From positions 1 through 54,685 of the IMG/VR virus record IMGVR_UViG_3300048599_000773: a DNA stretch of 54,685 nucleotides. One strand, 5' to 3'. The notes beneath the pieces are model-generated. The model searched no databases, was not told the origin of the DNA, and saw only the letters and a program-made list of their open reading frames with translations. The position numbers and the translations under genes were made by a program. The stretch is from a virus. Lineage: Duplodnaviria; Caudoviricetes. Of the stretch, positions 28,681 to 52,425 are shown piece after piece. How positions within the stretch are numbered: the first letter of the stretch is position 1; each line of letters starts with the position of its first letter.

Positions 28681-28825
28681 CATTAAAAAGAACCCCCGAA
28701 TCTCAATGTCGGGGGTTTAAGTAGTTTATTTATAAAGTGATTTCCTTTTCACGGACGAGGATAAGGTTAGGTGCGGCTTGGGACTACCATAAAAAGATTT
28801 AACCAGCTAAAGGCTGGTTTTTTGT
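28681..28825. repeat. att-like repeat copy 1 (hairpin + recombinase tail + ACCA + hairpin)
   Basis: CCCCCGA..TCGGGGG hairpin; TTTTCACGGACGAGGATAAGGTTAGGTGCGGCTTGGGACTACCA; AACCAGC-TAAA-GGCTGGTT(T)n. Confidence 0.9.
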
Positions 28826-29074
28826 TGTCTAATTCTCAACATTTCTCCAATGGTATTGAATCGAATGGAGGAAGTAGATTAAATTTAAACGAAGTTTTTA
28901 TAAGACTAAAACCCTGAATCCATTCGTTCCTTAGTTTTTAAATGTTGGAAATGGATTATCTGTATCCAAATAATTCCAAAAGCGAATTCGTCACCAAGAG
29001 TTTTTTTTATCAATAAAATTGTGTTATAATGGGTTTAAGTAGAAATCGTGTTCCTTAACTGGAGGGATTAAGAA

Positions 29075-29305
29075 ATGAGTATGTTATCTGATGTGACCAA
29101 GCAGGCGTTGGATCTCCCCATTGAAGAGCGCATTATTCTTGTACAACGTGTATGGGACAGCGTGGGGCACTTTGTAAACCCCGAAGTTGAGAAAGCCTGG
29201 ATGGACGAGGCTGACCGGAGATGGCAGGAGATTGAGGAGGGAAAAGTACAGTGCCTACCAGCGGACCAAGTGATGAAACAAGCCCGCGAGAGTTTGGGCC
29301 GCTAA
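29075..29305 (+). CDS. Addiction-module antitoxin (putative)
   Basis: ALDLPIEERIILV..VWDS...AWMDEADRR; upstream of a ParE-like toxin. Confidence 0.8.
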   Translation: MSMLSDVTKQALDLPIEERIILVQRVWDSVGHFVNPEVEKAWMDEADRRWQEIEEGKVQCLPADQVMKQARESLGR

Positions 29306-29604
29306 TACTTGATTACCACCCAGAAGCATCTATAGAATTAGTTGAGGCAGCCCGTTTCTATGAGGAAAGAAGAGTAGGTCTAGGACATAGATTTCTTGAC
29401 GCTGTAAATGCGTCGCTTGACATGCTACAGCGAAGTCCTTTACTTGGATGTTCTGATGAGTGTGGCCGAAGGAAGTGGCTGATTCGCGGATTTCCATATA
29501 TGATTATTTATCGACTACAAGGCGTTTTTCTCCATATTTTAGCGATTGCGCACACAAGTAGAAAGCCAAGTTATTGGGAGAATCGAGAACTAGGCGGACA
29601 ATAG
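29251..29604 (+). CDS. ParE/RelE-family toxin (start uncertain)
   Basis: HPEASIELVEAARFYE...FPYMIIY...ILAIAHTSRKPSYW. Confidence 0.8.
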   Translation: MPTSGPSDETSPREFGPLILDYHPEASIELVEAARFYEERRVGLGHRFLDAVNASLDMLQRSPLLGCSDECGRRKWLIRGFPYMIIYRLQGVFLHILAIAHTSRKPSYWENRELGGQ

Positions 29605-29659
29605 CCGAAGATATTTACATTCATTATAATATTAAGTAAACCGATCTTAATAAGATTTA

Positions 29660-30062
29660 TTAAATAAAGACCCCCGATTTTGATAGTCGGGGGTCTTTAG
29701 CGGTTTTATTTGTAAAGCTACTTCCTTTTCACGGACGGTCGGGTCCTCAACCAGCTACATCCCTTTCATCCTCCTCCAAAATTAAACGAATCGTCAAACT
29801 CCCCGGCTGTTCATCGACCACAAATTTCCGGCCGGTCTGAAAACCATTTTTAACCAGCCAGTTACCAGAGAGACGAATCGCGGGGACTTGCTTATCATTG
29901 GCATAGATCGAACTTACAGTAAGACGCCTGGTTTTCATTTGTTTTTTCCTCCCCCGTCATTTTTATAAAGTGACTTCCTTTTCACGGACGTGGATAAAAT
30001 TAGGTGCGGCTTGGGACTACCATGAAAATTATCAAAAACCCAGCTAAAGTTGGGTTTTTTGT
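29660..30062. repeat. att-like repeat copy 2 (with symE)
   Basis: Same hairpin, core ending GGGACTACCA at 30022, downstream AACCCAGC/GTTGGGTT hairpin. Confidence 0.9.
29747..29938 (-). CDS. symE: SymE-family type I toxin
   Basis: RRLTVS...VPAIRLSGNWL...GFQTG..F.V....G.LTI. Confidence 0.8.
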   Translation of the reverse strand: MKTRRLTVSSIYANDKQVPAIRLSGNWLVKNGFQTGRKFVVDEQPGSLTIRLILEEDERDVAG

Positions 30063-30253
30063 GTTGTTTGGCAACATTCCGCTAACGATATTAGTATAAG
30101 GAAAAAGTTTAATCAAGCTAATAGATAGTGAAAGGTGCTTAGCTTGTTCAAATGTACCTCCTTGTGCGGATGAACTCTTGATTTTTAGGAATAGCGATAG
30201 TAAAATAAGTATATGATAAGTATATTATTTTACTACCATAGGAGACTTTTAAG

Positions 30254-30535
30254 ATGAATATAAAACCGTCTGCGGCTATTCGCAAAAATTATAACGAAAT
30301 ATCCGCACTCTGCAAGACCACTAAAGAGCCTGTTTTTTTGACCAAAAACGGTGAGGGCGACTTGGTTGTTATGGATATTGCCACTTATTCTCAGCGTGAA
30401 AGCATGTTAAGACTACGGGAACAGCTTGTCGCTGTGGAAGAGGATAGGTTGGCGGGCAAAAAGGGTTTTTCAATCGGCGAATTGGATGAAATGATGAAGA
30501 AAGTAATAACGGAGATTGCTGATGGGCAGCAATGA
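30254..30535 (+). CDS. Phd/YefM-family antitoxin
   Basis: IRKNYNEIS...EPVFLTKNGEGDLVVM. Confidence 0.88.
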   Translation: MNIKPSAAIRKNYNEISALCKTTKEPVFLTKNGEGDLVVMDIATYSQRESMLRLREQLVAVEEDRLAGKKGFSIGELDEMMKKVITEIADGQQ

Positions 30536-30839
30536 TAAACGTTATCATGTTATTATCTCGGAACGAGCGGGTGAAATGCTCTTACAACACACCCGCTTTT
30601 TAGCGCAAGTCAGTACCCGGGCGGCCGATAAGCTCAGGATGAATATTGTCGAAGCCGCAAAATCTCTACAAGAGTTCCCGGAACGTGGTTCTTGGCTGGT
30701 CGATCCCTTATTGCCTGCAAATAAATACAGAAAGCTCTTAGTGGATAAGCGATATCTGATCATCTATCAAATCAAAGATGATACAGTATACATCGACTAT
30801 TTGGTGGATTGCCGTCAGAATTATGCCTGGTTGATATGA
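30522..30839 (+). CDS. RelE/ParE-family toxin
   Basis: SLQEFPERG, YRKLLVDKRYLIIYQI, VDCRQNY. Confidence 0.85.
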   Translation: MGSNDKRYHVIISERAGEMLLQHTRFLAQVSTRAADKLRMNIVEAAKSLQEFPERGSWLVDPLLPANKYRKLLVDKRYLIIYQIKDDTVYIDYLVDCRQNYAWLI

Positions 30840-30866
30840 TGGATATAACCATAATGGTTCTAGATT

Positions 30867-31258
30867 CATTAAAAAGAACCCCCGACCGGGGGTTTAAGTT
30901 GTTTATTTATAAAGTGATTTCCTTTTCATGGACGGTTCGGGTCCTCAACCAACTACATCCTTTTCATCCTCCTCTAAAATTAAACGAATCGTCAAACTCC
31001 CCGGCTGTTCATCGACCTGAAACTTCCGGCCGGTTTGAAAACCATTTTTAACCAGCCAGTTACCAGAGAGACGAATCGCGGGGAACTGCTTATCATTTGC
31101 ATATACCGAACTTACAGTAAGACGCCTGGTTTTTATTTATTTTTTCCTCCCCCGTCATTTTTATAGAGTGACTTTCTTTTCACGGACGAGGATAAGGTTA
31201 GGTGCGGCTTAGGACTACCATTAAAAAAGATTAAACCAGCTAAAGGCTGGTTTTTGTA
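30867..31258. repeat. att-like repeat copy 3 (with symE pseudogene)
   Basis: Core ending AGGACTACCA at 31220, followed by the AACCAGC-TAAA-GGCTGGTT hairpin. Confidence 0.9.
30945..31136 (-). pseudogene. symE: symE copy with start codon changed to ATA
   Basis: Same length (192 nt) and near-identical to 29747..29938, but ATG is ATA. Confidence 0.75.
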
Positions 31259-31367
31259 TTATTCGGCATTGGCTCATGTATAAAAACGTAGAGGAAGAAG
31301 AATAACCAATAACGAAGTTATTATGGCAAAAGAAATGGTATATAGTATCAAGGGTGGTGAAGGATAA

Positions 31368-31548
31368 ATGGGCGTTGTCGATAAGTATTCTTATTGGGAA
31401 GACGTCGTCGAATATGATCTCGGAACCGCGGAGGCAATGTCACGCGCACACGCGTGCAAATTCCGGCAGATATTTACATGTTGTTTTTATGTGTCAACAA
31501 GCGGTCAAGAAAATAACCAAAGGGTTATTTGTCTTTTTTAACGATTGA
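31368..31548 (+). pseudogene. HEPN-domain protein fragment
   Basis: YW....EYDLGTAEAM / SGRYLHVVFMCQQAV split by a 16-bp palindromic insertion; truncated. Confidence 0.7.
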
Positions 31549-31656
31549 ATTGTAAAATACAATATATAAATTAAATTATTGCAAACCGGAGGAAGAATTG
31601 CGGTTGAAAATAAACCGAGATTTAATGGGTTGTAAAAACGATCCGGAATCTGAAAA

Positions 31657-32865
31657 ATGAAACTAAATAAATTACCAAAACTTCACGAAAGGAAACAATC
31701 AAAGATGTTGAAAATTTTAATCGTAGGATTGATCCTATCATTTATCCTTGGAAGCAGTTTATCATCCGCCGAATTATCCTCTCTTAATCAAACATTGACG
31801 AATGAGAATACCGTCGATGCGCACTCCGCTGAACTGCTACAAAAAGTGATCGATCATACGGTTGCCGAAGAACGTCTGGTGGGTCTTCAAGTATCGGCTA
31901 AAACCGGGAATGGAGAAACATGGAATGGAGTTAGCGGCACGGTGGATAAAAAGCGAACCAAGGTTTTGGAGATCAATAATCCAATCCGGGTCGGCAGTAT
32001 AACGAAAACTTTTACGGCAGTAATCATTATGCATCTGATTGAAAAGGGTTACCTGGCATTAGATCAAAGCATCGATAATTGGTTTCCGGGTATATCCGGT
32101 TCGAACCAAATCACGATCAGAAATCTACTAAATCATTCAAGCGGTATCCCGGAAATATTGGGAATGAAAATGATGTTCGTTTCGACCATCAATCCGTGGA
32201 AGGTATGGAAGCCCGCAGAAATCATTCAAATCATTACAAGTAAAGATTTAGAGTTCAGTTCGGGTTCGAAGCATAAATACTCAAATTCCAACTATATTTT
32301 GCTGGGTTTCATTGCCGAGAAAGTTACGGGAAGGCCATTGCAAGATTTATATCGGGAAGAAATCTTAGATCCTTTGGGGTTAAAGAATACTTATTTCCTC
32401 CCATATGACTGTCCTCCGGTTGACTTAGTAAATGGTTATGATAGGAGTTTCATCCCATTCCCGGGAGGCTATGTCGTTAAAAAGGATAATACCGCCTGGA
32501 GCACTTGTGCATATGCATCCGGGGCCATGGCTTCAACCGCCCAAGATTTAATGAATTTTTATGACGCGATTATGAATAAAACCGTTGTCAGTGAAAGATC
32601 CTTCACAGCTATGACTGCTTTTGAAAATTCGAATGACAAAAATAATACCGAAGAATATTTGGACCGTTTTGGATTCGGGCTTTTCCAGTTTAATGCCGCT
32701 TATGATAACACATCCGGAAATTTAGGGATGTTCATCGGTTCGGAAGCATTAGCGCTCTATCATCCCGAAAAAAGATATGTCATCACAATCGTCGGAAATA
32801 TTTCCCGGTTTCATAAAGACCGGTTGGTTCAGGAGATAATCGGGATTATCAATCAAAAAACGTAA
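31657..32865 (+). CDS. Secreted serine hydrolase (beta-lactamase/D-Ala-D-Ala carboxypeptidase family)
   Basis: Signal-like N-terminus, GSITK (SxxK), LLNHSSG, YSN. Confidence 0.9.
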   Translation: MKLNKLPKLHERKQSKMLKILIVGLILSFILGSSLSSAELSSLNQTLTNENTVDAHSAELLQKVIDHTVAEERLVGLQVSAKTGNGETWNGVSGTVDKKRTKVLEINNPIRVGSITKTFTAVIIMHLIEKGYLALDQSIDNWFPGISGSNQITIRNLLNHSSGIPEILGMKMMFVSTINPWKVWKPAEIIQIITSKDLEFSSGSKHKYSNSNYILLGFIAEKVTGRPLQDLYREEILDPLGLKNTYFLPYDCPPVDLVNGYDRSFIPFPGGYVVKKDNTAWSTCAYASGAMASTAQDLMNFYDAIMNKTVVSERSFTAMTAFENSNDKNNTEEYLDRFGFGLFQFNAAYDNTSGNLGMFIGSEALALYHPEKRYVITIVGNISRFHKDRLVQEIIGIINQKT

Positions 32866-33094: not shown

Positions 33095-33198
33095 AAAATA
33101 AAACCCCCGAATCAATGGTCGGGAGTTTTAAGGGGTCTATTTATAAAGCGACTTTCTTTTCACGGACGTGGAAAATTAGGTGCGGCTTGGGACTACCA
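33095..33198. repeat. att-like repeat copy 4
   Basis: Hairpin + TTTTCACGGACGTGGAAAATTAGGTGCGGCTTGGGACTACCA. Confidence 0.88.
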
Positions 33199-33420
33199 TA
33201 GTAAGAACTGTCTTTTGCCGATTTATTTGCAACTGCAGTCCCAATATTATAACTTTTAAATTATAATCAAGAACATCAGGTAATACTTCATATTCTTTCA
33301 TTAATACTCCCTCCCTTGATTATTTAACAATAATTCCCCCTAAATAACCAAATTATCCTTTGATGGACAGGATTTTTTGAAGCTTAGCCGAAATAAATTG
33401 TGGTTGAATGGTAATTTTGG

Positions 33421-33478
33421 TATAGCGACTTTCTTTTCACGGACATGGATTAAGGTTAGGCTCGGCTTGGGACTGCCA
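33421..33478. repeat. att-like repeat copy 5 (diverged)
   Basis: TTTTCACGGACATGGATTAAGGTTAGGCTCGGCTTGGGACTGCCA. Confidence 0.85.
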
Positions 33479-33520
33479 AAACCTCTATCCAAAGTTATTG
33501 TTAGGGGTTTGGTAAGTGAC

Positions 33521-33622
33521 TTTTTATAAATTGTTTTCCGGGTGACGGACGAGGATAAGATTAGGTACGCTTCAGGACCACCAAATTTAAAAGATTAAAT
33601 CCCTGATAAAGGGTTTTTTTGT
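33521..33622. repeat. att-like repeat copy 6 (most diverged)
   Basis: ACGGACGAGGATAAGATTAGGTACGCTTCAGGACCACCA, then AAAAGATTAAA and a hairpin with T-run. Confidence 0.75.
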
Positions 33623-33987: not shown

Positions 33988-34488
33988 ATGGGTTTGTCAT
34001 TAGGACAATATATAAAATCAGTAAGAAAGTCTATGAAGATGTCGGCGGCAAAACTTAGCAAGGATGCAGGCATATCAAAATCATACCTTGATTATATTGA
34101 GAGCGGCGCGCGTGAGCCTCAGCCCGAAATTCTCGCAAAACTCGCGGTAATACTTGAGGTGCAGCTTGACGCTTTGTTAGAGATTCAAAAGAAAGAAAAA
34201 CTGGAATCCGCACTGAACAAACTTCGAGCAGAGAACGCATCTCTTAATGACGATGAGCTTCGGGCGGTTGCGAGAACGGCGGACAACGGTTTGAGCGTGG
34301 ATAGACAGGCCCTTGCCATGATGCAAGAAGCGTTTCGCGATGCAAACGATGCCGCGCGAGTAGCTGATTACATTGAAAACCCCAATCTTCGCGCCATAGT
34401 CAAAGCGGGGGCGAGGCTTAGCGACGAAGAACTTGAAAAATTGAGAAAGGTAATGGAATCTCTGTATCCCAATGAATTCCGTTCCTAA
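33988..34488 (+). CDS. XRE-family HTH regulator
   Basis: LSKDAGISKSYLDYIESG HTH_3. Confidence 0.88.
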   Translation: MGLSLGQYIKSVRKSMKMSAAKLSKDAGISKSYLDYIESGAREPQPEILAKLAVILEVQLDALLEIQKKEKLESALNKLRAENASLNDDELRAVARTADNGLSVDRQALAMMQEAFRDANDAARVADYIENPNLRAIVKAGARLSDEELEKLRKVMESLYPNEFRS

Positions 34489-35407
34489 ACCGGAATCGGC
34501 CCTCCGAGTTTTTCACATGGCTCATAAATTCTTGAATGAATTTGGGGTCCGCTGGCTCCCCGTTGATCCGTATGAGATCATCAGCAGGCAGAAAAACTGG
34601 AGGTTGAGATATGTGGACAGGCTCGCTTACGAAATAGGTATGGACGAGCGGCATGTCTTGGAGCACGTTATGAGAAGCAACGACGGTATTGCCATGTATG
34701 ACCCTGTTGCCAAGCAATACGATATCATTCTGAACAACGCGGATGAAATCCCTAAAACAAGAATGCTATGGACTGCGGTACATGAAATCGGCCATATCTA
34801 CTTGGGGCATCTTGATGACGGGCGCACCAAAATAACCGCCGACTTGCTTTCCCGCAGCGAATATCAGCAGTTGGAATTTGAAGCGGATGTTTTCGCCGGG
34901 GAGGTGCTGGCTTCCAAGTGGTTGATGCGGCAGCTTGACATTGTGGATGAGAACGACATTGCGTTGATATGCGGCATTTCAGATGATGCGGCCCTCAGCA
35001 GGTACAGGAAAGCGACTGAGGACTACGACTATATACCTGTAAATGTGGTCTTGACGCTCCATAACTTTGGGGAATATTTAAAGAATGTGGCGATTTGCAA
35101 GCCACTTGAAGAATTTGATGATTACGCGCGTTTCACTCATAGTAACCGCGAAACCGACAAACTACTCAAACCCAAGCCGCCGTTTTTGCGAAGACCGGGA
35201 AATTGTCCGTATTGCGGGAACGAGCGGGGGATATCGGAGAGTTCCAACTTTTGTATTGCCTGCGGGAGCACTCTTAAACCGGCGGTTAAGCGAGGAACCG
35301 GTCATTGCGGCCATGTCAGCCACGAGACCGCCGCCTTTTGCGAGGAATGCGGCAACAAGGTATATCGCATTAGGCAGGGCTTTTGCCTGGAAGAGTGTGA
35401 GGTATGA
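34472..35407 (+). CDS. ImmA/IrrE-family metallopeptidase with C-terminal zinc ribbons
   Basis: HEIGH (HExxH), EFEADVFA; CPYCG, CIACG, CGH, CEECG. Confidence 0.88.
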   Translation: MNSVPKPESALRVFHMAHKFLNEFGVRWLPVDPYEIISRQKNWRLRYVDRLAYEIGMDERHVLEHVMRSNDGIAMYDPVAKQYDIILNNADEIPKTRMLWTAVHEIGHIYLGHLDDGRTKITADLLSRSEYQQLEFEADVFAGEVLASKWLMRQLDIVDENDIALICGISDDAALSRYRKATEDYDYIPVNVVLTLHNFGEYLKNVAICKPLEEFDDYARFTHSNRETDKLLKPKPPFLRRPGNCPYCGNERGISESSNFCIACGSTLKPAVKRGTGHCGHVSHETAAFCEECGNKVYRIRQGFCLEECEV

Positions 35408-35441
35408 TAAATTATTATAAAAAGGTCTGGAGGAAAAGAAG

Positions 35442-38900: not shown

Positions 38901-38905
38901 GGAGG

Positions 38906-42283: not shown

Positions 42284-42295
42284 GGGGGTATCCAA

Positions 42296-43945: not shown

Positions 43946-44078
43946 AATGGGGTGAATTGGGCAAAGTAATGCAAATTGATTATTATTTTTACAATATCTT
44001 TTTATCACCTTCTATACAGAAGGTTTTTTGTTTTTTCCAACGAAATGGTTTTATATTATTGCTTTAAAGAGACTTGAC

Positions 44079-44906: not shown

Positions 44907-44909
44907 GGA

Positions 44910-46589
44910 GTGGTTATATTGAGTTATAAGCCGATTTCGTTAAGGAATCTATTATCCTTAAAAAATACTTCTTTATTTTTACCCCATATTCAACGGCCTT
45001 TTGTTTGGGAATATGAACAAATTATCCGGTTACTAGATAGCCTAATGAGAAACTACCCTATACAAACTTTATTGTTCTGGAAAACCAAAGACTATATAAA
45101 AACTCGTAAATTTATGGATAATATCGAAAGTGATCCAGATTTGAGTGATTACTATGATGAAAATGTTAGTCAAGAAGGTAAAGAAAAGACATTTGTTTTG
45201 GATGGTCAACAAAGATTACAATCACTTTTTGCAGTCTTTGATGGTTCTTATGATGACAAAGAATTCTATATTAATATTTTAACTGGAGAAAAAGAATTAG
45301 ATGATAATTTATATTATGAATTTCGATTATCGAAAAGAAACAATGAACTTGACCTTCCTTATTTTAAACTAAAAAAACTTATCCATGATAACCGTAATGC
45401 GGAAGATATTGCTGACGAAGTAAATACTAAACTGGATGAAATATTACTTGATGAAGGAAATAGACGGGAACGAGAGAAACTTGTTAGGCGAAATATAAGC
45501 CAAATAACATCGTTAATTCGGGAAGATAAACATTTTTGGTTCGATGAACTTGATGGTATTGCTAATAAATATACATATAATTTAATACTGAATATATTTA
45601 TCCGTGTAAACTCTGGTGGAACAAAATTGGATGCCGCCGATCTCATGTTTGCCGCAATGAAAGAAGCATGGTCCGAAGTAGAAGAAAATATTGAAAGTGT
45701 AATTGAACTCCTAAACAACTCAGGTAGACTTAATTTCGATAAAACTATGGTATTAAAAGGAATTATGCTGGTTTTAGATAAAGGGGCTATACTCACACCG
45801 GATTTTTTTCTTGGTAATCAAGGAGATTTAACATTAAATCTAATTGAACAAAGTTGGCCTAAAATAAGTGATGCCTTTACACAACTTAGAGACTTTATTC
45901 AAAGTGAATTAATGTTATACTCTGATAAGGTAGTTCGTTCATATAATGCGCTAATTCCAATTTTTGAATATTTTTATTATAACCCCAGTCCTGATCCAAT
46001 TAATAGGGCAAAGCTAAAGAGCTATTATTATAGAGCGCAATTATTTAATTGGTTTTCGGCAAGAACTGATCAGATATTAAATTCCATTCATGGGATTTTT
46101 AAAAGAAATTTGACTTCAGATTTTCCGCTTGATGAGATTAAAAAATACTTTAAAATTGAAGTTTACAAAGAAGATACTTTGAAAGCTGATCACCTTAGAG
46201 ATGCAAGATTAAGATATATTTTTTTGAATATGATTTATGTTGAATATACAGGGACTAGCCCATTTAATGTTGCTTTTAAAATGAATGAACCACATATAGA
46301 CCATATATATCCAAAAAGCAAGTTAAAAAAGATTCATCCTGCTAGTGAAATAAATAATATTGGAAATTATCGATTTGTGGGAGCCGCAGATAATATTCGG
46401 AAAAGAGCAGAGTTACCGGACTCATATTTTAAACGGTTAAAAGCAGAAGGTGTTGATATTAAGAGACATTTACTATTAGATGATTATACAGTTGATCCTG
46501 ACAAGTTAACTATAAATAATTATAATGACTTTCGTAACAGGAGATTGGATGAGATACTAAAAATTGGAGCAAAAATTGTAAACAAATGA
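44910..46589 (+). CDS. GmrSD-like DUF262 + HNH (DUF1524-like) protein
   Basis: LPHIQRPFVW, LDGQQR, FIRVNSGG..L, C-terminal IDHIYP...IGN. Confidence 0.85.
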   Translation: MVILSYKPISLRNLLSLKNTSLFLPHIQRPFVWEYEQIIRLLDSLMRNYPIQTLLFWKTKDYIKTRKFMDNIESDPDLSDYYDENVSQEGKEKTFVLDGQQRLQSLFAVFDGSYDDKEFYINILTGEKELDDNLYYEFRLSKRNNELDLPYFKLKKLIHDNRNAEDIADEVNTKLDEILLDEGNRREREKLVRRNISQITSLIREDKHFWFDELDGIANKYTYNLILNIFIRVNSGGTKLDAADLMFAAMKEAWSEVEENIESVIELLNNSGRLNFDKTMVLKGIMLVLDKGAILTPDFFLGNQGDLTLNLIEQSWPKISDAFTQLRDFIQSELMLYSDKVVRSYNALIPIFEYFYYNPSPDPINRAKLKSYYYRAQLFNWFSARTDQILNSIHGIFKRNLTSDFPLDEIKKYFKIEVYKEDTLKADHLRDARLRYIFLNMIYVEYTGTSPFNVAFKMNEPHIDHIYPKSKLKKIHPASEINNIGNYRFVGAADNIRKRAELPDSYFKRLKAEGVDIKRHLLLDDYTVDPDKLTINNYNDFRNRRLDEILKIGAKIVNK

Positions 46590-46668
46590 AATCGGTATTT
46601 CTAACATGATCAAAAAGAACTTTAGTGAGTCATCCATGAAATATGAGGGATAACTTAAGGAAAAGCCA

Positions 46669-47310
46669 ATGAAAACAATAGCCGACTATGCTTCAATAAA
46701 ATTAGGCCCAAATCTTCTAACCTTTAGATATAATACCAGATTCATCTCTGATAATGGTCCTGGTGATATTATTGGGCTAGTTTACATGATGAACCCAGGC
46801 GATGCAAAACCTAAATGTGTAGATTTATATAACAAACTTACTACTGAGGAAATTTGTTTGGAAAACGAAGACACTGAATGTGATACAACTATGAAAATAG
46901 TTCAAAATTTTATTGGTTTGGCATTTGACACTAATGGAAAAACCCTACCTCCAAAATACACTATATTAGTTGAAAACTTATTTAATCTTAGAAAAATTAA
47001 TAGTAAAATCGCACAAAGAACGGCTATCAATTATTTAAAGTTTGATAACAAAAATGATATAGAAAAGAAAATCGCAGAAATTATGTTCTATCATAGACAT
47101 TTAGATTCAAATTATAATTTTGTCTGGTTCGCTTGGGGAAAAGTTAGAAAATCAATACTCAAACCTGATATTACAATATATCCTAATAGGATTATTGTTA
47201 ATACGATCAAGTATAAAGGAAAACCCAAGCAAATAAATTATCCAAAGCATCCAATTGGCATGAATGTTGATTTTTTTGTAGATGCTTCAAAAGGAAAAAT
47301 TTTACTTTAA
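46669..47310 (+). CDS. DUF1643-like protein (tentative)
   Basis: MMNPG...NLF...FAWG...KHP motif series. Confidence 0.55.
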   Translation: MKTIADYASIKLGPNLLTFRYNTRFISDNGPGDIIGLVYMMNPGDAKPKCVDLYNKLTTEEICLENEDTECDTTMKIVQNFIGLAFDTNGKTLPPKYTILVENLFNLRKINSKIAQRTAINYLKFDNKNDIEKKIAEIMFYHRHLDSNYNFVWFAWGKVRKSILKPDITIYPNRIIVNTIKYKGKPKQINYPKHPIGMNVDFFVDASKGKILL

Positions 47311-47358
47311 CCTTGTATATCAAAGAAGAGACAATAAAAACGGAGAAGTGACTTAATA

Positions 47359-48102
47359 ATGTGTTGGAAAGACCATAATGATTTAAATTATGAAGACTTT
47401 AACCAAGAAGTTAATCAATTTATTTCGTTTGCTAAAAAATATTATTGCAAATTATTTATCAAGATTGATAGAGAATACTCTCCTATTGGTTCCGGCGGGT
47501 TTTTTAAATATAAAGGGAAAAACTATTTAATGACTAACTGGCATGTTATTAAGGGGTGGAATAAACAGGATATTTTTATATCTGTATCAACGGATGGAAA
47601 TGCCATTAATTGTCTGAACAATAAGCCTATTGGAGATCAAGATTTTGACATTGCGATTTTTGAAATTTTCCCAGAATATATTACTAAGTTTAACGGAAAA
47701 GAATTTTTAGATATAGAATTCTTTCAAAGAAATCCGATAGACTATTTAAAACTATACAATACTGCCATCGTATTTGGTAATCCAACATGTTTTGCAGAAT
47801 CAAACAATGAATATACTGAATATGATTTAACTATGTTTACATATTTTACCTTTACTATTGGAGTACAAGCTAATCTAATCAACCTATCCCTAGTGTATAT
47901 TGATCAATTTGGGAATGAATCCGAGCTTATCCCGGAAGTGCCAGGATTAAGTGGTTCTTTTGTATATTGTTTAGATAGAAGTAGTTCTCAAGCACCCTAC
48001 AAATGTATAGGAGTTTTATCAAGAGGAAGTCGAACAGCAAAAAATCTTTGGGTAATAAATATCGATGATATATTTAACTATCTTGAAAATAATGGCGTTT
48101 AA
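47359..48102 (+). CDS. Trypsin-like serine protease
   Basis: GSGGF, TNWHV (His), DIAI (Asp), GLSGS (Ser); no signal peptide. Confidence 0.75.
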   Translation: MCWKDHNDLNYEDFNQEVNQFISFAKKYYCKLFIKIDREYSPIGSGGFFKYKGKNYLMTNWHVIKGWNKQDIFISVSTDGNAINCLNNKPIGDQDFDIAIFEIFPEYITKFNGKEFLDIEFFQRNPIDYLKLYNTAIVFGNPTCFAESNNEYTEYDLTMFTYFTFTIGVQANLINLSLVYIDQFGNESELIPEVPGLSGSFVYCLDRSSSQAPYKCIGVLSRGSRTAKNLWVINIDDIFNYLENNGV

Positions 48103-48197
48103 GTAAAATTAATCCTATTCAACTTAAAAAACCCGCTAAACCTGACAACACTAAGAGTTATGTTTTATACTTTAAGAAAGATGCTCTTGATAAGATC

Positions 48198-48573
48198 CAT
48201 TAAAAAAATGCCCTCGTTCTTGACGATCGGGGGTTTTTAGTGGGTTTATTTGTAAATAATTTCCTTTTTACGGACAATTCGGGTCCTCAACCAGCTACAT
48301 CCCTTTCATCCTCCTCTAAAATTAAACGAATTGTCAAACTCCCCGGCTGTTCATCGACCTGAAACTTCCGGCCGGTTTGAAAACCATTTTTAACCAGCCA
48401 GTTACCTAAAGAGACGAATCGGGGGACTTGCTTTTCATTGGCATAGATCGAACTTACAGTGAGACGCCTGGTTTTCATTTATTTTTTCCTCCCTCGTCAT
48501 TTTTATAGAGTGACTTTCTTTTCACGGACGAGGATAAGGTTAGGTGCGGCTTGGGACTACCAGCTTATCCACG
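48198..48573. repeat. att-like repeat copy 8 (attP-like, with symE, joined to recombinase remnant)
   Basis: Core ...GGATAAG(48532-38)...ACCA(48562)-G-CTTATCC(48564-70) forms an inverted repeat; the right flank is recombinase-like coding sequence. Confidence 0.9.
48287..48478 (-). CDS. symE: SymE-family type I toxin (local compensating frameshifts)
   Basis: Near-identical to 29747..29938, but VPRFVSLGNW replaces VPAIRLSGNW. Confidence 0.7.
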   Translation of the reverse strand: MKTRRLTVSSIYANEKQVPRFVSLGNWLVKNGFQTGRKFQVDEQPGSLTIRLILEEDERDVAG

Positions 48574-48835
48574 CACCTGCAGAACTTGAGTTTTATCTCG
48601 ATCTCTTCATGTCCGATAATAATTTTTCAATGAACCTGTCGATGACTTCCTCACATTCGGCAGGTTTTGTTCTATCATAGAGGGCATTCCGGTTTAGTTC
48701 CAAATAGTTTATAATTTGTTCGCGGGAAAAAGGAATGGTGCGCCGGATTTGGTAATAATCAAGGTTGCTCTCAAGTTCCTGCCGTCTATTTTTAAGTGTT
48801 TGCAATCTCTGGATTGTTTCTGGATCGTCTAACCC
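48475..48835 (-). pseudogene. 3' remnant of a putative large serine recombinase
   Basis: Coiled coil LQTLKNRRQELE, then VIDRFIEK / IIIGHEEIEIKLK / GSPKPHLTLSSSVKRKSLYK across two frameshifts. Confidence 0.6.
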
Positions 48836-48928
48836 TTTTTGGCGCTTTGGTGGACGGTGATTAAATGACCAGGGAAGCCGCTTTGGAATACCATTTAAAA
48901 AACTATCCGGCCTTGCAAGCGATCCATC

Positions 48929-49132
48929 ATGTTGGCGACGAACTACGCCCAAGCCAAGGCGATGGCCGGTTTGACCGTGGAAGCCTTGGACGGGTTCTCC
49001 GGGGTGATGGGCGGACCGGGCGGTATCTTGGTTGAGGGTGCAATTTATCAGGATATGAGCGACTTTTACGAGCCGGATACCAAGCTATATAACGTGATGA
49101 TTGATTTTATTATTTTGCATCATGAAAGTTAA
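48929..49132 (+). pseudogene. Tail terminator (DUF3168-like) C-terminal fragment
   Basis: Y.QAKAMA....EALDGFSG...D.YEPDTKLY...IDF. Confidence 0.6.
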
Positions 49133-49401: not shown

Positions 49402-50532
49402 TTAATTTTTCATTTTTAACTTGAATTTCTTCACCTGACTGATACGGGTCGGATCATATCCCGTCCTGACTTGAATATCCCCAGTTGATAAATTGTAAAC
49501 AACTGACCACATGGTAGTTGTCTGCGAGATATCTTTTAAAAGTTTCATGGCGTTATTGTCGCTGATAATACCATTGGTTTTTTTCAGAGTCTCAAATGCG
49601 GTTGAATACCGGTCAACGCCAATATGATCTATCGCTCCTGGCGATAAAAGGGACGAAATATCCTTGGTATTATAAAGCTGAAAATTGGTGGCGACTTGCC
49701 ATGGTTGTTCAGTTTGAATCACTTCCATCTTGCCGTCGACAAACTCGATCACGGCGGAATGGCCGGAGGCATCGGCGATTAAACAATGAGAAGGAAGAGG
49801 AAAAGAGATATTATATTTTTTGATCAGCATAATCGCTTCCGCTACATTTTTGGCATGATCCAGCACCAATCGGAATGCATCCCATCCACTTATCGTCATT
49901 TTATTAGGATCATGACTGCTTTCGGCATGGGGAACAGCCATCGTGCCAACAGCCAAACCACATTCATTCATACCATCCAATGGCATCCACGGCATTGTCA
50001 ATAGTTTGGTCCTGTCGAACACTGAAGCAGGGATGTAATTCGGGGGATTGTAGCCGCAATAGCATGGATCGAGTAATGATACTGACCGATAGCCATTTGG
50101 GGGATTAGTAAACAATAATACTGCGGAACGATGGGACCAATCAAAATTGCGTCCGAGTATTGGATTTCCTTTTTCGTTCCGGGCTGAAAATACGCTGCAA
50201 GCCCAATGAGGACTCTTCTGATTCTGAAAATTCCTCCATGCGGCTGTCTTAAGCAGATGAAAATTGGGGTACCTACCCGTTTTCAAAAATTCATCAAATC
50301 CATAATCCCCGTAATAGGTCATTGTGTATAGGGGTTCATCGCCGACTTTGGTAAAGGATAAGATCGTCCGAAGCGGGTTGCCATATAAAAATGAGATACT
50401 AACGATAATAATCAGCAATAATACGGCTACGACCAATAAAATCCCTTTTCGTCTTGATTTTTTTGTTTGAATTTTAATCGTTTTTTCGGGTAATGACTTT
50501 ACTTCTTCCATTTCTGTCGCCCCCTTTCTCAT
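49402..50532 (-). CDS. Membrane-anchored Ntn hydrolase (linear amide C-N hydrolase/choloylglycine hydrolase-like)
   Basis: N-terminal TM, ACSVF nucleophile Cys, GRNFDW, DGMNECGL, ATNF. Confidence 0.85.
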   Translation of the reverse strand: MRKGATEMEEVKSLPEKTIKIQTKKSRRKGILLVVAVLLLIIIVSISFLYGNPLRTILSFTKVGDEPLYTMTYYGDYGFDEFLKTGRYPNFHLLKTAAWRNFQNQKSPHWACSVFSARNEKGNPILGRNFDWSHRSAVLLFTNPPNGYRSVSLLDPCYCGYNPPNYIPASVFDRTKLLTMPWMPLDGMNECGLAVGTMAVPHAESSHDPNKMTISGWDAFRLVLDHAKNVAEAIMLIKKYNISFPLPSHCLIADASGHSAVIEFVDGKMEVIQTEQPWQVATNFQLYNTKDISSLLSPGAIDHIGVDRYSTAFETLKKTNGIISDNNAMKLLKDISQTTTMWSVVYNLSTGDIQVRTGYDPTRISQVKKFKLKMKN

Positions 50533-50769
50533 TTGAATTGATCATAACAGCTTTATATGACTTGGCATACTTACCATAGTACTAAAAAAGGATGTTACTT
50601 ATAGTACTTCTGTACTTAATTTTTCCATTACGGAGGGAAAAACGATGCCGGAAATATTAAATCTCAACGTATTAGATCCCGAGCCGAAAAAATATTGATT
50701 ACCATACCCGCCTGAGGCCGAAAACTTTTGGTTTTTCTCTTGAAGTGGTTTCGTAAGTTAACCGGTGGT

Positions 50770-51209
50770 CTGCTTGAGAAAATATTGGAACGCGACAATC
50801 TGAACACAGCGTTTAAGAAAGTCAAATCCAATAAAGGGACCCATGGGGTGGATGGGATGGAGGCGGATGAACTTCTGCCATACCTAAAGCAACACGGCGA
50901 AACCATCAAACAGGCTATACTGGAGAGGAATTACATCCCCGCCCCGTCAGGAGGGTAGAAATACCGAAACCGGATGGTAGGAGCAGGCAGCTTGGGATAC
51001 CCACGGTGTTGGACCGAATGATTCAACAAGCAATCGCGCAGATATTGATACCGATATTTGAGCCGGGATTTTCGGAGAGCAGTTATGGATTTAGACCGGG
51101 AAGAAGCGCAAAAGATGCAATAATTAAGGCTAAAACCTACATTGAGATGGGTTACAGGTGGGTGATGGACATCGACCTGACGCGCTATTTCGACACGGTC
51201 AACCATTGA
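50770..51209 (+). pseudogene. ltrA: Group II intron reverse transcriptase fragment (RT0-RT3)
   Basis: NKGTHGVDG, frameshift near 50945, RRVEIPKPDG..RQLGIPTVLDR, SYGFRPGRSA, DIDL..YFDTVNH; no YADD. Confidence 0.9.
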
Positions 51210-51399
51210 TGTTGATTTGGCTATTTTTTCAGATTATTTTGAAGGGAGATCCCGAATTGACGGGATAAAGTTTTTACTTTCCAGAGCAAGGAAATATATC
51301 AAAATGGATTTTCAGCCAATACCCTTCACTTATCGGGATTATATTGAACGTGACGGATTTGCCGCCGAAGTTTTAAAAGAAGGAGTAGAGATTGTCTGA
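51208..51399 (+). pseudogene. Minimal nucleotidyltransferase (MNT) 3' fragment
   Basis: DVDLAIFSDYF...F..EVLKEGVEI; N-terminal GS motif missing. Confidence 0.65.
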
Positions 51400-51559
51400 A
51401 AATTATCATATAAAATATAAGCCAAGATGGGCTTATATTTTAATGATTTCATTGTACATATAGTTTATTAAGTATTTAATACTGCGGGTATGCTGAGTTT
51501 ACCTGGCTCTCCAGGTTTTACGTATACTGTGGGTATATTGGATACACCAGATCGACCGA

Positions 51560-51994
51560 TCATTCTGGGTATTGAGAACATTCTTGATACTGTGAGTCTG
51601 CTTCATATTCCGGGTAATTGGCTATATTTCTTTTTCGGCGCATTCTCACATATAATCTGACATAACGATCCGTGGTCACTTTTTCATGGCGCCTTTTAAA
51701 AGGATTCCAAACTTGATAATAAGTACTCCAATAAGCATCCCCGGCCGATACTTGGAAATCTCCCTTCCCAAATATTTTTCCCTTGTTAGCTAAAGCCTGC
51801 TTAAGCAAGTCCGGTCCAACCTTCTGTGCTAGATCCATTAATTGTTGGCCAAGGTAACTTTGGGCACAACCAAGATAAGTACAGGCGGCCAGTTTGGCCA
51901 ATTCACCCCAGCCATATGATTTAGACCAAAGGACAATATCCCATCCGGTCTCTATATCCCTTTTCATTTGTTCAAATGTACTCGGCAAATGCAA
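51560..51994 (-). CDS. Hypothetical protein (start uncertain)
   Basis: 144-aa ORF; no recognised motif. Confidence 0.5.
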   Translation of the reverse strand: MHLPSTFEQMKRDIETGWDIVLWSKSYGWGELAKLAACTYLGCAQSYLGQQLMDLAQKVGPDLLKQALANKGKIFGKGDFQVSAGDAYWSTYYQVWNPFKRRHEKVTTDRYVRLYVRMRRKRNIANYPEYEADSQYQECSQYPE

Positions 51995-52176
51995 TCCCCC
52001 TCTGGTAAAACTAACCTTTTAGAATATATACTATTCTCCTTTCCAATTCTTTGTGATAAATTAACTTATCGGAGACGTTAAAGAAGGCTTATGATGATGC
52101 GTTGATAGTCGGGGAAGTTATGGGGACTGAAAAAGGCATTGATACAAGGAACAAACCAAACGAAACAAAAGAGATT

Positions 52177-52425
52177 CATTGAAAAAGACCCCCGATCTTA
52201 GGTGCGGCTTGGGACTGCCATTAAAAAAGATTAAACCAGCTAAAGGCTGGTTTTTTGTGTTGTTTGACAACATTCCACAACGATTACAGTTTTAGGGATA
52301 AAGTTTATCATGCGATTAGAAAATGAAAGGTTCTAAGGTTTAGTCAATCGTACCTCTGATGCAGAAGTACTCTTGATTTTTGGGAATAGTAATATAAGCA
52401 TATGATAAGTATATTATTTTACTAA
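52177..52425. repeat. att-like repeat copy 9 (internally deleted) plus flank homologous to 30060-30235
   Basis: GACCCCCGATC joined to TTAGGTGCGGCTTGGGACTGCCA (ends 52220), then the hairpin and a shared downstream tract. Confidence 0.85.

What the first reader, a model, noticed from the sequence alone, without database searches (positions are those of the whole stretch)
28681..52260. Integron-like array of defence/accessory cassettes delimited by nine att-like repeats
Seen: the core TTTTCACGGAC.(A/T)GGATAAGGTTAGGTGCGGCTTGGGACTACCA recurs in the same orientation, ending at 28789, 30022, 31220, 33198, 33478, 33583, ~43945, 48562 and 52220. It is usually preceded by a CCCCCGA..TCGGGGG hairpin, and in copies 1, 2, 3, 6 and 9 it is followed by a second terminator-like hairpin. 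The gene-bearing intervals each hold a self-contained module: TA; TA; HEPN relic + hydrolase; regulated Type I RM + Fic; GmrSD cluster; phage relic + amidase. Copies 4-6 are separated only by short non-coding gaps. Inference: these are stacked attR sites. A phage excising at a distal attR would carry off the intervening cassette and add a new attR on re-integration, building a recombinase-driven cassette array unlike classical IntI/attC integrons.
Basis: partly seen in the sequence, partly recalled or inferred. Interest (0 to 1): 0.85.

Follow-up and report, generated by a model that had tools for sequence, protein, structure and literature searches.

The report
Stacked tRNA-Glu attachment sites with cassettes
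The nine repeats are leftover attachment sites, derived from the end of a glutamate tRNA gene, that mark where a phage-like element and its decayed relatives piled up defence and toxin-antitoxin cassettes; this way of building islands is known, but here it is unusually dense.

Summary
The repeat is real, local and one-stranded. Seven copies match the 23-nt core within 3 mismatches, two more are degenerate, and shuffles give none. It is not an integron attC, a REP/MITE or an Rfam RNA.

Its last 12 nt are the acceptor end of tRNA-Glu. The 34 nt before that still align in register with the tRNA, from the anticodon stem onward.

In four related elements from other assemblies, a large serine recombinase gene abuts tRNA-Glu at exactly this sequence. 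The unit plus the recombinase-side flank rebuild a 52-bp site with perfect 12-bp terminal inverted repeats around a central TT, as expected for a serine-integrase attP. The units are therefore its left half.

- Five units (1, 2, 3, 6, 9) are attR-type joints.
- Unit 8 is an attP-type joint followed by a recombinase gene relic.
- Unit 7 looks like a deletion scar.

Best reading: a tandem accretion array at a tRNA-Glu integration hotspot, with one intact phage-like element, two decayed ones and captured host-flank cassettes. This resembles CIME accretion and the tandem SCC defence cassettes of staphylococci. Present-day cassette mobility is inferred, not shown. The window holds neither the tRNA nor the recombinase gene.

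Novelty: the principle is already described as accretion and cis-mobilisation of CIMEs (passages of PMC5704250) and as tandem SCC-like defence cassettes moved by Ccr serine recombinases (PMC11470126, abstract and section 7). 'Unlike anything known' is therefore too strong.

The parts
1..15732 (+). Backbone of the phage-like element ('E-left'): cI-like repressor (1-372, minus), replication genes, terminase, portal, scaffold, major head protein, adaptor, tail-like proteins, weak endolysin/holin-like hits. The recombinase gene and tRNA expected to its left lie outside the window.
   Evidence: PHROGs and Pfam. It is 84-97% identical at protein level and ~88% at DNA level to G001:C3 140580-124698, and similar to G004.
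15999..20798 (+). Variable hotspot 1: Type IIG restriction-methyltransferase, a DNA methyltransferase and a Vsr-like endonuclease. Relatives carry other genes here.
   Evidence: PADLOC REase_MTase_IIG E=0; PHROGs. G001 and G004 differ at this position.
22716..23582 (+). RadC-like gene and a 105-aa gene, conserved in all relatives. Hotspot 2 begins right after the 105-aa stop codon.
   Evidence: Pfam RadC; conserved in G001, G004, L059 and L060.
24136..28233 (+). Gabija defence pair (GajA, GajB).
   Evidence: PADLOC GajA E 1e-285 and GajB E 1e-243.
28678..28826 (+). Unit 1, short form, attR-type: tail of gene X, hairpin 28692-28715, left box, core ending 28789, spacer, terminator 2.
29075..29604 (+). 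Cassette TA1: Unstab_antitox antitoxin and ParE toxin.
   Evidence: Pfam. The module is 94-96% identical in G003:C90.
29632..30063 (+). Unit 2, long form, attR-type: hairpin 29670-29693, left box, SymE ORF 29747-29938 (minus strand, ATG start), second left box, core ending 30022, terminator 2. Its flank up to 30235 is homologous to the flank of unit 9.
30254..30839 (+). Cassette TA2: Phd antitoxin and ParE toxin.
   Evidence: Pfam.
30862..31258 (+). Unit 3, long form, attR-type. The SymE-like ORF 30945-31136 (minus strand) has ATA in place of ATG. The core ends at 31220 and carries the TTAGGAC variant. Terminator 2 follows.
31354..32865 (+). Cassette: HEPN fragment (31354-31548) and a 402-aa beta-lactamase-fold protein (31657-32865).
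   Evidence: Pfam PF05168 E 2e-4 (below the curated cut-off) and PF00144 E 5.5e-47.
33103..33620 (+). Units 4, 5 and 6 (cores ending 33198, 33478, 33583), separated by 200 and 25 non-coding bases. Units 4 and 5 have small indels in the half-site. Unit 6 is a divergent variant ending GGACCACCA, followed by its own terminator.
33988..43751 (+). Cassette: HTH + M78 peptidase-like regulator pair, Type I RM (HsdM, HsdS, HsdR), DUF6602/PD-DExK, PDC-M59A candidate protein, Fic/Doc.
   Evidence: Pfam; PADLOC.
43878..43966 (+). Unit 7, degenerate. It has the left box and a shortened core, and diverges after GGGA. Its tail may be the last ~30 nt of a 105-aa gene, so it is read as a deletion scar between E-left and a second element.
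   Evidence: The likeness of the tail is only suggestive.
43967..48102 (+). 'E-mid' cargo. The promoter region (43953/43967-44122) follows the 105-aa gene directly in G004 and L059. Then come a 292-aa ORF, a GmrSD-family protein (HEC-05), and 213- and 247-aa ORFs.
48172..48576 (+). Unit 8, long form, attP-type joint. The SymE ORF 48287-48478 (minus strand) has its conserved motif altered by two compensating indels. The core ends at 48562. Two bases later comes the right inverted repeat (48565-48576, 10 of 12).
48593..48952 (-). Relic of the C-terminal part of a large serine recombinase gene; the left end of a third, decayed element ('E-right').
   Evidence: tblastn of the G001 recombinase: residues 402-476 match 48841-48617, 35% identity, E 3e-11.
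49402..51994 (-). E-right cargo: CBAH/AAT-family amidase (49402-50532) and a 144-aa ORF (51560-51994).
   Evidence: Pfam.
52063..52143 (+). Relic of the 3' end of gene X, the gene that precedes the terminal unit in G001 and G004.
   Evidence: tblastn: 74% identity over 27 aa, E 5e-9; DNA matches.
52174..52424 (+). Unit 9, truncated attR. The left arm of the hairpin is joined directly to the last 23 nt of the core (ending 52220), so the outer half-site is missing. Terminator 2 and a ~200-nt flank homologous to the flank of unit 2 follow, but without the TA genes.

Best explanation
The repeat unit is the element-side (P) arm of the attachment site of a phage-like element. That element integrates into the 3' end of tRNA-Glu genes using a large serine recombinase.

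Anatomy of a unit:
- The tail and terminator of the element's last gene (X).
- A left box.
- A 25-nt half-site that starts with a 12-bp inverted-repeat arm.
- The crossover TT.
- The last 10 nt of the tRNA.

The whole left box plus core is itself an old, decayed copy of the tRNA-Glu 3' two-thirds.

The window holds three such elements in tandem:
- An intact one (1 to ~43945).
- One reduced to its cargo and right end (43967-48562).
- One reduced to a recombinase relic, cargo, an X relic and a truncated site (48563-52220).

Inside the first element, units 1-6 are attR-type joints. Each is followed by the kind of sequence that natively follows tRNA-Glu (terminator, promoter) and then a small cargo.

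Inferred mechanism. The element integrated upstream of resident 'tRNA flank - cargo - old attR' modules. It later excised with a distal attR instead of its own, so it carried those modules with it. Using a proximal attR instead leaves modules behind for the next comer. Tandem copies and microhomology deletions did the rest.

Shown: the identity of the repeat, the junction types, the tRNA-Glu target in relatives, the dyad site and the relics. Inferred: which recombinase acts in this genome, the order of events, and any present-day mobility.
For: 1. tRNA origin. The last 12 nt of the core equal the acceptor end of tRNA-Glu. Ungapped and anchored at the 3' end, 15-18 of the 34 preceding positions also match in units 1, 2, 3 and 8 (binomial P 2e-4 to 6e-3). 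Units 4 and 5 have indels and do not reach this (local alignment).

2. Integration target in relatives.
- In G001, the same element (~88% DNA identity to window 1-15730) starts with a 532-aa Resolvase+Recombinase+Zn_ribbon protein. Its 3' end abuts a 49-nt tRNA-Glu 3' fragment.
- In 3 of 3 further viral contigs with a 90-94% identical recombinase, the gene abuts an intact tRNA-Glu (2 UUC, 1 CUC). The joint is always ...ACCA + 3 nt + TTATCCACGTCC.

3. Dyad site. In G001 the right-end unit begins its half-site with GGACGTGGATAA and the left end carries its perfect reverse complement. Joined at the shared block, they span 52 bp with TT exactly central.
- The left arm (<=2 mismatches) is present in units 1-8 and absent from unit 9.
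- The right arm occurs on the + strand only after unit 8, plus one chance-level hit at 5987.

4. Single-base footprint. G001's attR reads TTAGGAC, as does the tRNA-Glu(CUC) of G002. Its attL reads TTGGGAC, as most units do. This places the exchange at or left of the TT.

5. Relics. A recombinase C-terminal relic follows unit 8 (E 3e-11) and an X relic precedes unit 9 (E 5e-9).

6. Host-flank left ends. The 238 nt after unit 2 are 78.6% identical to those after the terminal unit 9. In G002 an intact tRNA-Glu is followed by the same type of terminator, and 3.1 kb later by a long unit.

7. Locality. One core in 4.3-Mb G001, one in G002, five on four contigs of G003.

8. Variation at the units.
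- G003:C90 shares unit-TA1-unit at 94-96% identity and diverges a few bases after ACCA.
- G004 and L059 lack 23582-43966.
- Contigs from 3 of the 4 metagenome runs laid run on into unlike sequence right after 28789, 30022, 48562 and ~33580.

9. No recombinase in the cassettes. None of the 32 window ORFs scanned against Pfam, nor the 19 others scanned only against PHROGs, matched a recombinase family.
Against: - The window contains neither the tRNA-Glu gene nor the recombinase gene; it starts about 90 nt short of where the gene lies in G001. The enzyme is therefore assigned by synteny with relatives.
- Canonical serine integrases do not recombine attP with attL or attR. Tandem elements with an attP-type inner joint need a dimer or a homologous-recombination route. 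The very first 'tRNA flank - cargo - attR' module has no demonstrated origin.
- No recombination directionality factor was identified.
- No circle or empty-site junction was observed. The joints come from short metagenome contigs of relatives at >=88% likeness, where repeats can mis-join.
- The in-register likeness upstream of the last 12 nt is modest. A free local alignment without the anchor is not significant (196 of 2000 shuffles reach it). The units are not independent samples.
- The reading of unit 7 as a deletion scar rests on a weak likeness.
- In the 2 relatives whose right end is assembled (G001, G004) there is only one complete unit, at the right end (G001 also carries one extra left box before its SymE gene). 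Stacking is therefore not a general property of the family.
- Terminator 2 could be the cassettes' own left arm rather than host flank.
Confidence: 0.8

Rival explanations
1. The array is an active cassette platform today. The element's serine integrase, with a directionality factor, chooses among several intact attR sites (units 1, 2, 3). The phage-like element thereby loads and unloads TA and defence cassettes at each excision, in an integron-like or SCC-like way. This extends the best explanation rather than excluding it.
For: Units 1, 2 and 3 keep the full half-site, the central TT and a flank of attB type. The TA1 module is shared with G003 in another context, with both borders in the core. 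Metagenome contigs diverge right after ACCA. Ccr serine recombinases do this experimentally with tandem defence cassettes (PMC11470126, section 7).
Against: No excised circle or empty site was seen. Units 4, 5, 6, 7 and 9 are damaged. No recombinase gene is in the window and no directionality factor was found. The relatives G001 and G004 carry a single unit.
Confidence: 0.3
2. After an initial integration, the array was built and is reshuffled only by homologous recombination between the 100-450-bp repeats. Routes would be unequal crossing-over, or circles formed and re-inserted by RecA. Site-specific recombination would play no further role.
For: The long units are 90-92% identical over ~334 nt, which is enough for RecA. 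The short forms look like deletions between the two left boxes that flank SymE. Joints in metagenome contigs fall at several positions in the units: the hairpin, the end of the left box, and the core (table 5).
Against: Homologous recombination alone does not create attR-type joints followed by tRNA-flank sequence, nor an attP-type joint next to a recombinase relic. Divergence from relatives starts at the same base after ACCA in several independent contexts.
Confidence: 0.3
3. The units are fossil direct repeats left by tyrosine-integrase elements that cross over in the anticodon loop of tRNA-Glu. The serine recombinase would be incidental.
For: In G001 a 41-kb element with a tyrosine integrase sits at the same tRNA-Glu and is bounded by a 49-nt repeat spanning the anticodon stem to the 3' end. 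That is the same span over which the units resemble the tRNA.
Against: The units share the same non-tRNA substitutions in the T-arm across five assemblies, so they propagate in the decayed form. An anticodon-loop crossover with such a copy would destroy the tRNA. The perfect 12-bp inverted repeat with the recombinase-side flank, and the TT centre, point to the serine enzyme. This rival may still explain where the P arm came from originally.
Confidence: 0.1
4. The repeat is a regulatory or small-RNA module of the SymE type I toxin system (promoter, 5' UTR, or an antisense RNA ending at terminator 2) that was duplicated together with the toxin gene.
For: The second left box lies immediately upstream of the SymE ribosome-binding site in 3 units, and a terminator follows the core.
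Against: Only 3 of the 9 units have a SymE ORF. In G001, SymE has a different upstream region with its own promoter-like hexamers (read by eye) and a divergent HTH gene. There is no Rfam family at gathering score. Apart from the terminators, the folds are not better than shuffles (z -0.9 to -1.7 on the + strand). This rival explains neither the tRNA end, nor the dyad, nor the relics.
Confidence: 0.07
5. It is a REP- or MITE-like dispersed repeat, or a classical integron attC array.
For: Same-strand repeats between co-oriented cassettes. A GTTAGGT word fits the attC R' consensus (recalled).
Against: One core per 4.3-Mb relative. No inverse core site and no attC-like hairpin by eye, and no strong fold. 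No IntI-type integrase among the scanned ORFs. One cassette is 10 kb with eight genes.
Confidence: 0.02

Closest known systems
Tandem accretion and cis-mobilisation of CIMEs with ICEs/IMEs (Pavlovic 2004 and Bellanger 2011, seen here only as cited in passages of the review PMC5704250)
   Same: Elements decay to integrase-less cassettes that keep their att sites. A newcomer integrates beside them at the 3' end of a target gene, including tRNA genes. Composite excision with outer sites moves the cassettes in cis.
   Different: Those cases are conjugative elements, mostly with tyrosine integrases, and usually involve two or three elements. Here the carrier is phage-like with a serine recombinase. 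There are nine sites, some cassettes are only 1.2 kb, and most inner joints are attR-type with host-flank left ends.
Tandem SCC/SCCmec-like cassettes in staphylococci moved by CcrAB/CcrC large serine recombinases (PMC11470126; abstract and section 7 read)
   Same: Large serine recombinase. Cassettes without their own recombinase stand in tandem, bounded by repeated att sequences and enriched in defence systems (RM and others). They were shown experimentally to excise singly or together.
   Different: SCC integrates at rlmH, not a tRNA, and is not a phage. Ccr family membership of the recombinase here was not tested. No excision data exist for this array.
Genomic islands and prophages at tRNA gene 3' ends, with displaced 3' fragments as direct repeats (general knowledge, recalled)
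   Same: The repeat ends with the tRNA acceptor end and CCA. An intact tRNA lies on one side and partial copies on the other. G001 has two different elements in tandem at the same tRNA-Glu.
   Different: The partial copies here are not fresh tRNA fragments. They are a shared, decayed tRNA-like arm that travels with the element and serves as half of its attP.
Integrons (IntI, attI, attC cassettes)
   Same: Co-oriented small cassettes, many of them toxin-antitoxin pairs, each ending in a repeat.
   Different: No IntI, no attC structure, multi-gene cassettes with their own promoters and terminators, and a tRNA-derived site.
Defence hotspots in prophages and satellites (P2/P4-type hotspots; recalled, no paper read here)
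   Same: Two variable slots at fixed positions of a conserved phage-like backbone carry different defence systems in each relative.
   Different: Here one slot has grown into an att-punctuated array.

Membership tests
Integron cassette array | IntI-type tyrosine integrase with attI next to the array | tested here: not met
   No Phage_integrase hit in the 32 window ORFs scanned against Pfam. The only recombinase trace is a serine-recombinase relic.
Integron cassette array | attC sites: imperfect palindromes with inverse core and core sites that fold as a hairpin | tested here: not met
   No inverse core site upstream of the GTTAGGT word (read). Folds of the unit are not better than shuffles apart from the terminators. 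No dedicated attC model was run.
Integrative element at a tRNA gene 3' end | The repeat is identical to the 3' end of a tRNA gene | tested here: met
   The last 12 nt equal tRNA-Glu (11-12 of 12 in units 1-4 and 8; 9-11 in units 5 and 6) and the likeness continues upstream in register.
Integrative element at a tRNA gene 3' end | Intact tRNA gene at one end with a recombinase gene beside it | tested here: inconclusive
   Met in relatives: 3 of 3 viral contigs have an intact tRNA-Glu beside the recombinase gene. G001 has the 49-nt fragment there and the intact gene 41 kb further on. Neither is inside the window (no tRNA).
Large serine integrase attP | A site of ~50 bp with dyad symmetry around a central non-palindromic dinucleotide, next to a Resolvase+Recombinase+Zn-ribbon gene | tested here: met
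   In G001 the arrangement is 25-TT-25 with perfect 12-bp outer inverted repeats. In window unit 8 the right arm matches 10 of 12 with one base less spacing.
Large serine integrase attP | The enzyme recombines attP with attB | not testable with these tools
   Needs biochemistry or genetics.
CIME (cis-mobilisable element) | Bounded by att sites and lacking integration and transfer genes | tested here: met
   TA1, TA2, the beta-lactamase-fold cassette and the RM cassette are bounded by units and hold no recombinase family hit.
CIME (cis-mobilisable element) | Excised and moved in cis by a neighbouring element's recombinase | not testable with these tools
   Only indirect evidence: the same module occurs in another context in G003.
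SCC-type element | Ccr-family recombinase and integration at rlmH | tested here: not met
   The target is tRNA-Glu. Ccr membership was not examined.
REP/MITE dispersed repeat | Many copies spread over the genome, on both strands | tested here: not met
   1, 1 and 5 cores at <=3 mismatches in three relatives of 3.7-4.7 Mb; in the window 7 forward and 0 reverse. The window's own host genome is not available.
SymE type I toxin-antitoxin | SymE_toxin domain protein | tested here: met
   PF08845, E 2.2e-10, 40.9 bits against a cut-off of 29.
SymE type I toxin-antitoxin | Antisense RNA overlapping the 5' end of the toxin mRNA | not tested
   No RNA run holds the stretch. No Rfam match.

The most novel reading that the evidence does not exclude
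A temperate phage-like element of uncultured Bacillota uses its serine integrase and a choice among several attR sites as a cassette loader. At each excision it can take along or leave behind small modules that begin with the native tRNA-Glu flank and end with an old attR. Toxin-antitoxin and defence cassettes as small as 1.2 kb would thereby circulate between host chromosomes and phage genomes. This would be a phage-borne, serine-recombinase counterpart of an integron, with a SymE toxin lodged in the site's arm to hold the end of the array in place.
Probability: 0.3. Interest if true: 0.75.

Novelty: new variant of a known kind. Interest (0 to 1): 0.5.

Why it matters
The array offers a readable record of how defence islands are assembled next to tRNA genes. 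The junction types (attR-type, attP-type, deletion scar) let the history be reconstructed cassette by cassette.

If the inner sites are still used, it would show that a phage-like element can ferry variable sets of defence and addiction modules by site choice alone. That would extend what has been shown experimentally for SCC cassettes in staphylococci to phages and to tRNA targets.

It also gives a defined 52-bp site and a tRNA-Glu target for a new serine integrase, which can be tested directly.

Finally, it is a caution for provirus border calling: about half of this 'provirus' record is accreted cargo and remains of older elements.

Tried and rejected
- RNA families. Rfam found nothing at gathering score in the whole window. 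In 28600-33700 it found only 8 sub-threshold hits, 16-28 bits against cut-offs of 47-80.
- tRNA scan. ARAGORN finds no tRNA in the window.
- sRNA/SymE idea. I first read the unit as a SymE promoter or antisense-RNA module and dropped it as the main reading (see rivals). RNA folds are unremarkable.
- Integron attC. No inverse core site was seen.
- Long direct repeats around the G001 element. Exact shared words of 13 nt or more between its two ends gave only chance-level 13-15-mers. This fits a serine integrase.
- Collection scans.
  - The core in genome contigs gave 4 stretches in 3 Bacillota MAGs.
  - It gave 0 in metagenome contigs.
  - It gave 1 in viral contigs.
  - A pattern for 'tRNA-Glu end + terminator 2' gave 0 in metagenome contigs.
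  - The left box plus core start gave only the same viral contig.
  - SymE as a protein query gave only that contig again.
- Annotated records. No match of unit 2 among annotated phage or plasmid records.
- Relatives of G002. 4 of 41 genomes matched, and only at tRNA level, so no empty site was recovered.
- Sequencing runs. No RNA holder was listed. 20 runs from 11 studies hold small shares (0.07-0.17) of 28678-33700.
- Reads laid on the array. Parts of the 20-kb stretch without cover, and the many 'joints' at units in short contigs of relatives, were not used as evidence of excision.
- Right flank. Searching relatives for DUF6179 found only 26-38% identical proteins, and no tRNA within the ~4.3-kb loci fetched around them. 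The window's host insertion locus could therefore not be matched.
Paper supplements were not consulted.

Full report

Yes.
- The 31-nt core occurs 4 times at <=3 mismatches, against none in 100 shuffles.
- Its 23-nt 3' part occurs 7 times, all on the + strand, with no match to the backwards control.
It shows that the unit is longer than the core.
- Printing all nine ends side by side gives the anatomy. In order: a hairpin, a left box ending CACGGACG, the core ending ACCA, and in units 1, 2, 3, 6 and 9 a short A-rich spacer, a second terminator and a further conserved ~40-200 nt.
- The window is an IMG/VR provirus record, and no host genome is held.

**2.

- Units 2, 3 and 8 are long forms of ~334 nt, 90-92% identical to each other.
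- In these the left box occurs twice, flanking a 63-aa ORF on the minus strand that matches SymE_toxin (PF08845, E 2e-10).
- Only the copy in unit 2 looks intact. The copy in unit 3 has ATA for ATG. The copy in unit 8 has its conserved motif altered by two compensating indels.
- The short forms look like the long form with everything between the two boxes removed.

**3. Gene content.**

- 1-15.7 kb is a phage-like backbone: repressor, replication genes, terminase, portal, scaffold, major head protein, adaptor, tail-like proteins, and weak lysis hits.
- A Type IIG RM block follows, then RadC and a 105-aa gene, then Gabija (GajA/GajB).
- Then come the cassettes bounded by units: two ParE-type TA pairs, a HEPN fragment with a beta-lactamase-fold protein, a regulated Type I RM with PDC-M59A and Fic, a GmrSD-family (HEC-05) cluster, and a CBAH amidase.
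- No scanned ORF of the window matches a recombinase family. 32 ORFs were scanned against Pfam and 19 others against PHROGs only.

**4. Relatives.**

- The core was found in only 4 stretches of 3 Bacillota MAGs, in one other viral contig, and in no metagenome contig of the collection.
- Whole-genome searches show it is local: one core in G001 (4.3 Mb), one in G002, and five on four short contigs of G003.
- G001 carries the same phage-like element (~88% DNA identity, same gene order). So does the viral contig G004.
- In both, two slots hold different genes than in the window: one after the last backbone gene and one after the 105-aa gene. In both, the element ends with gene X, the hairpin, the left box, SymE and the core.
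- G004 and L059 lack window 23582-43966 altogether. In them the 105-aa stop is followed directly by the sequence that in the window follows unit 7.

**5. The key result: the core is the end of tRNA-Glu.**

- Reading the other end of the G001 element shows a 49-nt 3' fragment of tRNA-Glu(CUC) ending ...GTTGGGACTACCA. The 3' end of a 532-aa ORF with Resolvase, Recombinase and Zn_ribbon_recom domains follows at once on the opposite strand.
- The intact tRNA-Gln/tRNA-Glu pair lies 41 kb further on. It lies beyond a second element that has a tyrosine integrase and is bounded by the 49-nt repeat.
- Three more viral contigs encode a 90-94% identical recombinase. In 3 of 3 it abuts an intact tRNA-Glu (two UUC, one CUC) with the same joint: ACCA, three bases, then TTATCCACGTCC.
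- The last 12 nt of the window's units are this acceptor end. Anchored there and without gaps, 15-18 of the preceding 34 positions also match the tRNA in units 1, 2, 3 and 8 (P 2e-4 to 6e-3). Units 4 and 5 carry indels and do not.
- An unanchored local alignment of the upstream part alone is not significant. This part of the claim is therefore moderate.

**6. The site.**

- In G001 the right-end unit starts its inner part with GGACGTGGATAA, and the recombinase-side flank carries the exact reverse complement.
- Joined through the shared tRNA end they make 52 bp, 25-TT-25. This is the size and symmetry known for attP sites of large serine integrases (general knowledge).
- A one-base footprint agrees. 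G001's attR has TTAGGAC, as in the tRNA-Glu(CUC) of G002, while its attL has TTGGGAC, as in most units. Exchange therefore took place at or left of that base, not at the ACCA border.
- In the window the left arm is present in units 1-8 and missing from unit 9. The right arm occurs only after unit 8.

**7. Junction types in the window.**

- Units 1, 2, 3, 6 and 9 are attR-type: element arm, tRNA end, then spacer and terminator 2.
  - The same kind of terminator follows the intact tRNA-Glu of G002. There a long unit stands 3.1 kb downstream, behind a SWIM-type protein and an AbrB/PIN pair.
  - The 238 nt after unit 2 are 78.6% identical to those after the terminal unit 9, which then lacks the TA genes.
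  - The inner cassettes therefore begin with the sequence that natively follows the tRNA.
- Unit 8 is attP-type: two bases after ACCA comes the right arm (10 of 12), then a relic of the recombinase C-terminus (E 3e-11).
- Just before unit 9 lies a relic of gene X (E 5e-9).
- Unit 7 loses likeness after GGGA. Its tail faintly resembles the end of a 105-aa gene, and the next bases are the hotspot-2 promoter region of G004 and L059.
- I read the whole as three elements in tandem:
  - The first is intact and has captured modules in its second slot.
  - The second is cut down by a microhomology deletion.
  - The third is cut down to relics.

**8. How the array could grow (inference).**

For a canonical serine integrase, any site of the form 'P arm - TT - tRNA flank' is a legitimate attR.
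- An element that integrates at a tRNA-Glu already followed by 'flank - cargo - old attR' can excise with the distal site. It then carries the module along, leaving an attR-type joint inside its genome.
- Excision with the proximal site leaves modules behind the restored tRNA, which is the state seen in G002.
- It does not explain the first such module. Tandem elements with an attP-type joint need integration of a dimer or homologous recombination.
- Homologous recombination between the long repeats surely acts as well (short forms; joints at several positions).

**9. Variation at the units.**

- G003:C90 shares unit - TA1 - long unit at 94-96% identity, then differs a few bases after ACCA. 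Its array ends in polysaccharide genes.
- Logan contigs of 4 soil and other metagenome runs from 4 studies were laid on 28600-48599. They cover the TA and SymE parts.
- In 3 of these runs, contigs run on into unlike sequence directly after 28789, 30022, 48562 and ~33580 (table 7).
- These are short contigs of relatives, and repeats can mis-join. I take them as consistent with the units being the borders, not as proof of excision.

**10. Comparison with what is known.**

- The review PMC5704250 (passages read) describes the three-step route of integration, decay to a CIME that keeps its att sites, and accretion of a newcomer, with transfer of the composite.
- PMC11470126 (abstract and section 7 read) shows that Ccr large serine recombinases excise tandem SCC-like cassettes rich in defence systems, singly or together.
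- The present array works like these. It differs in carrier (phage-like), target (tRNA-Glu), number and small size of cassettes, the attR-type inner joints with host-flank left ends, the tRNA-fossil arm, and the SymE gene lodged in it.
- It fails the integron tests and the dispersed-repeat test.
- I found no annotated phage or plasmid record with the unit. My literature searches were aimed at the mechanism, not at this lineage.

**11. Verdict.**

The recombinase assignment rests on relatives, because the window stops ~90 nt short of the gene. Present-day mobility is open. This is a new variant of a known kind, of moderate interest.

Noticed in passing
window 29747-29938, 30945-31136, 48287-48478 (minus strand): Three SymE_toxin ORFs sit inside the long repeat units. 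One looks intact, one has ATA instead of ATG, and one has its conserved motif altered by two compensating indels. In G001 the SymE gene has a different upstream region and a divergent HTH_26 gene.
   Followed up: partly
G001:C3 142154-183115 (loci L035, L036, L048): A second, unrelated 41-kb element stands between the intact tRNA-Glu(CUC) and the serine-recombinase element. It has a tyrosine integrase, an ArdA-like ORF (named by eye, not scanned) and phage structural genes, and is bounded by a 49-nt tRNA repeat. The same tRNA therefore serves two integrase types.
   Followed up: partly
window 15733-22700 and 23583-28233; G001 and G004 equivalents: Two fixed slots of the phage-like backbone carry different defence sets in each relative. 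The window has Type IIG RM in the first and Gabija in the second. G001 has an HD-domain protein plus a distant GajA/GajB-like pair, and a methyltransferase + DUF4928 + SEFIR/TIR protein. G004 has five unrelated minus-strand genes.
   Followed up: partly
window 51333-51442 and G001:C3 104234-104349: A 115-nt stretch is 84% identical and lies beside a CBAH-family amidase gene in both, although the amidases are only ~30% identical. It reads like the end of a gene plus a terminator.
   Followed up: partly
window 33504-33620; G003:C7 (L034) ~5170-5215, 10700-10830, 14520-14610: Unit 6 is a divergent variant ending GGACCACCA. Similar decayed units lie among ordinary transporter and TetR genes in G003. 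Old att fossils may therefore extend far into host-like sequence.
   Followed up: no
G001:C3 113143-113580; G004 22321-23379; window 52063-52143: Gene X, next to the site, is interrupted by a stop codon in G001, is in two pieces in G004, and is a short relic in the window. Its C-terminus reminded me of Rpn/YhgA-type nuclease tails (recalled). Pfam gave no hit.
   Followed up: partly
window 1 and 52425-54685: The provirus record starts ~90 nt short of where relatives have the recombinase gene. It ends in DUF6323 and DUF6179 genes that look like host genes. The record's borders therefore do not match the element's ends.
   Followed up: partly
window 33213-33250: After unit 4 there is a truncated start of another left box, followed by a 10-of-12 inverted copy of the acceptor-end word. 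It may be chance or the trace of an inverted site.
   Followed up: no
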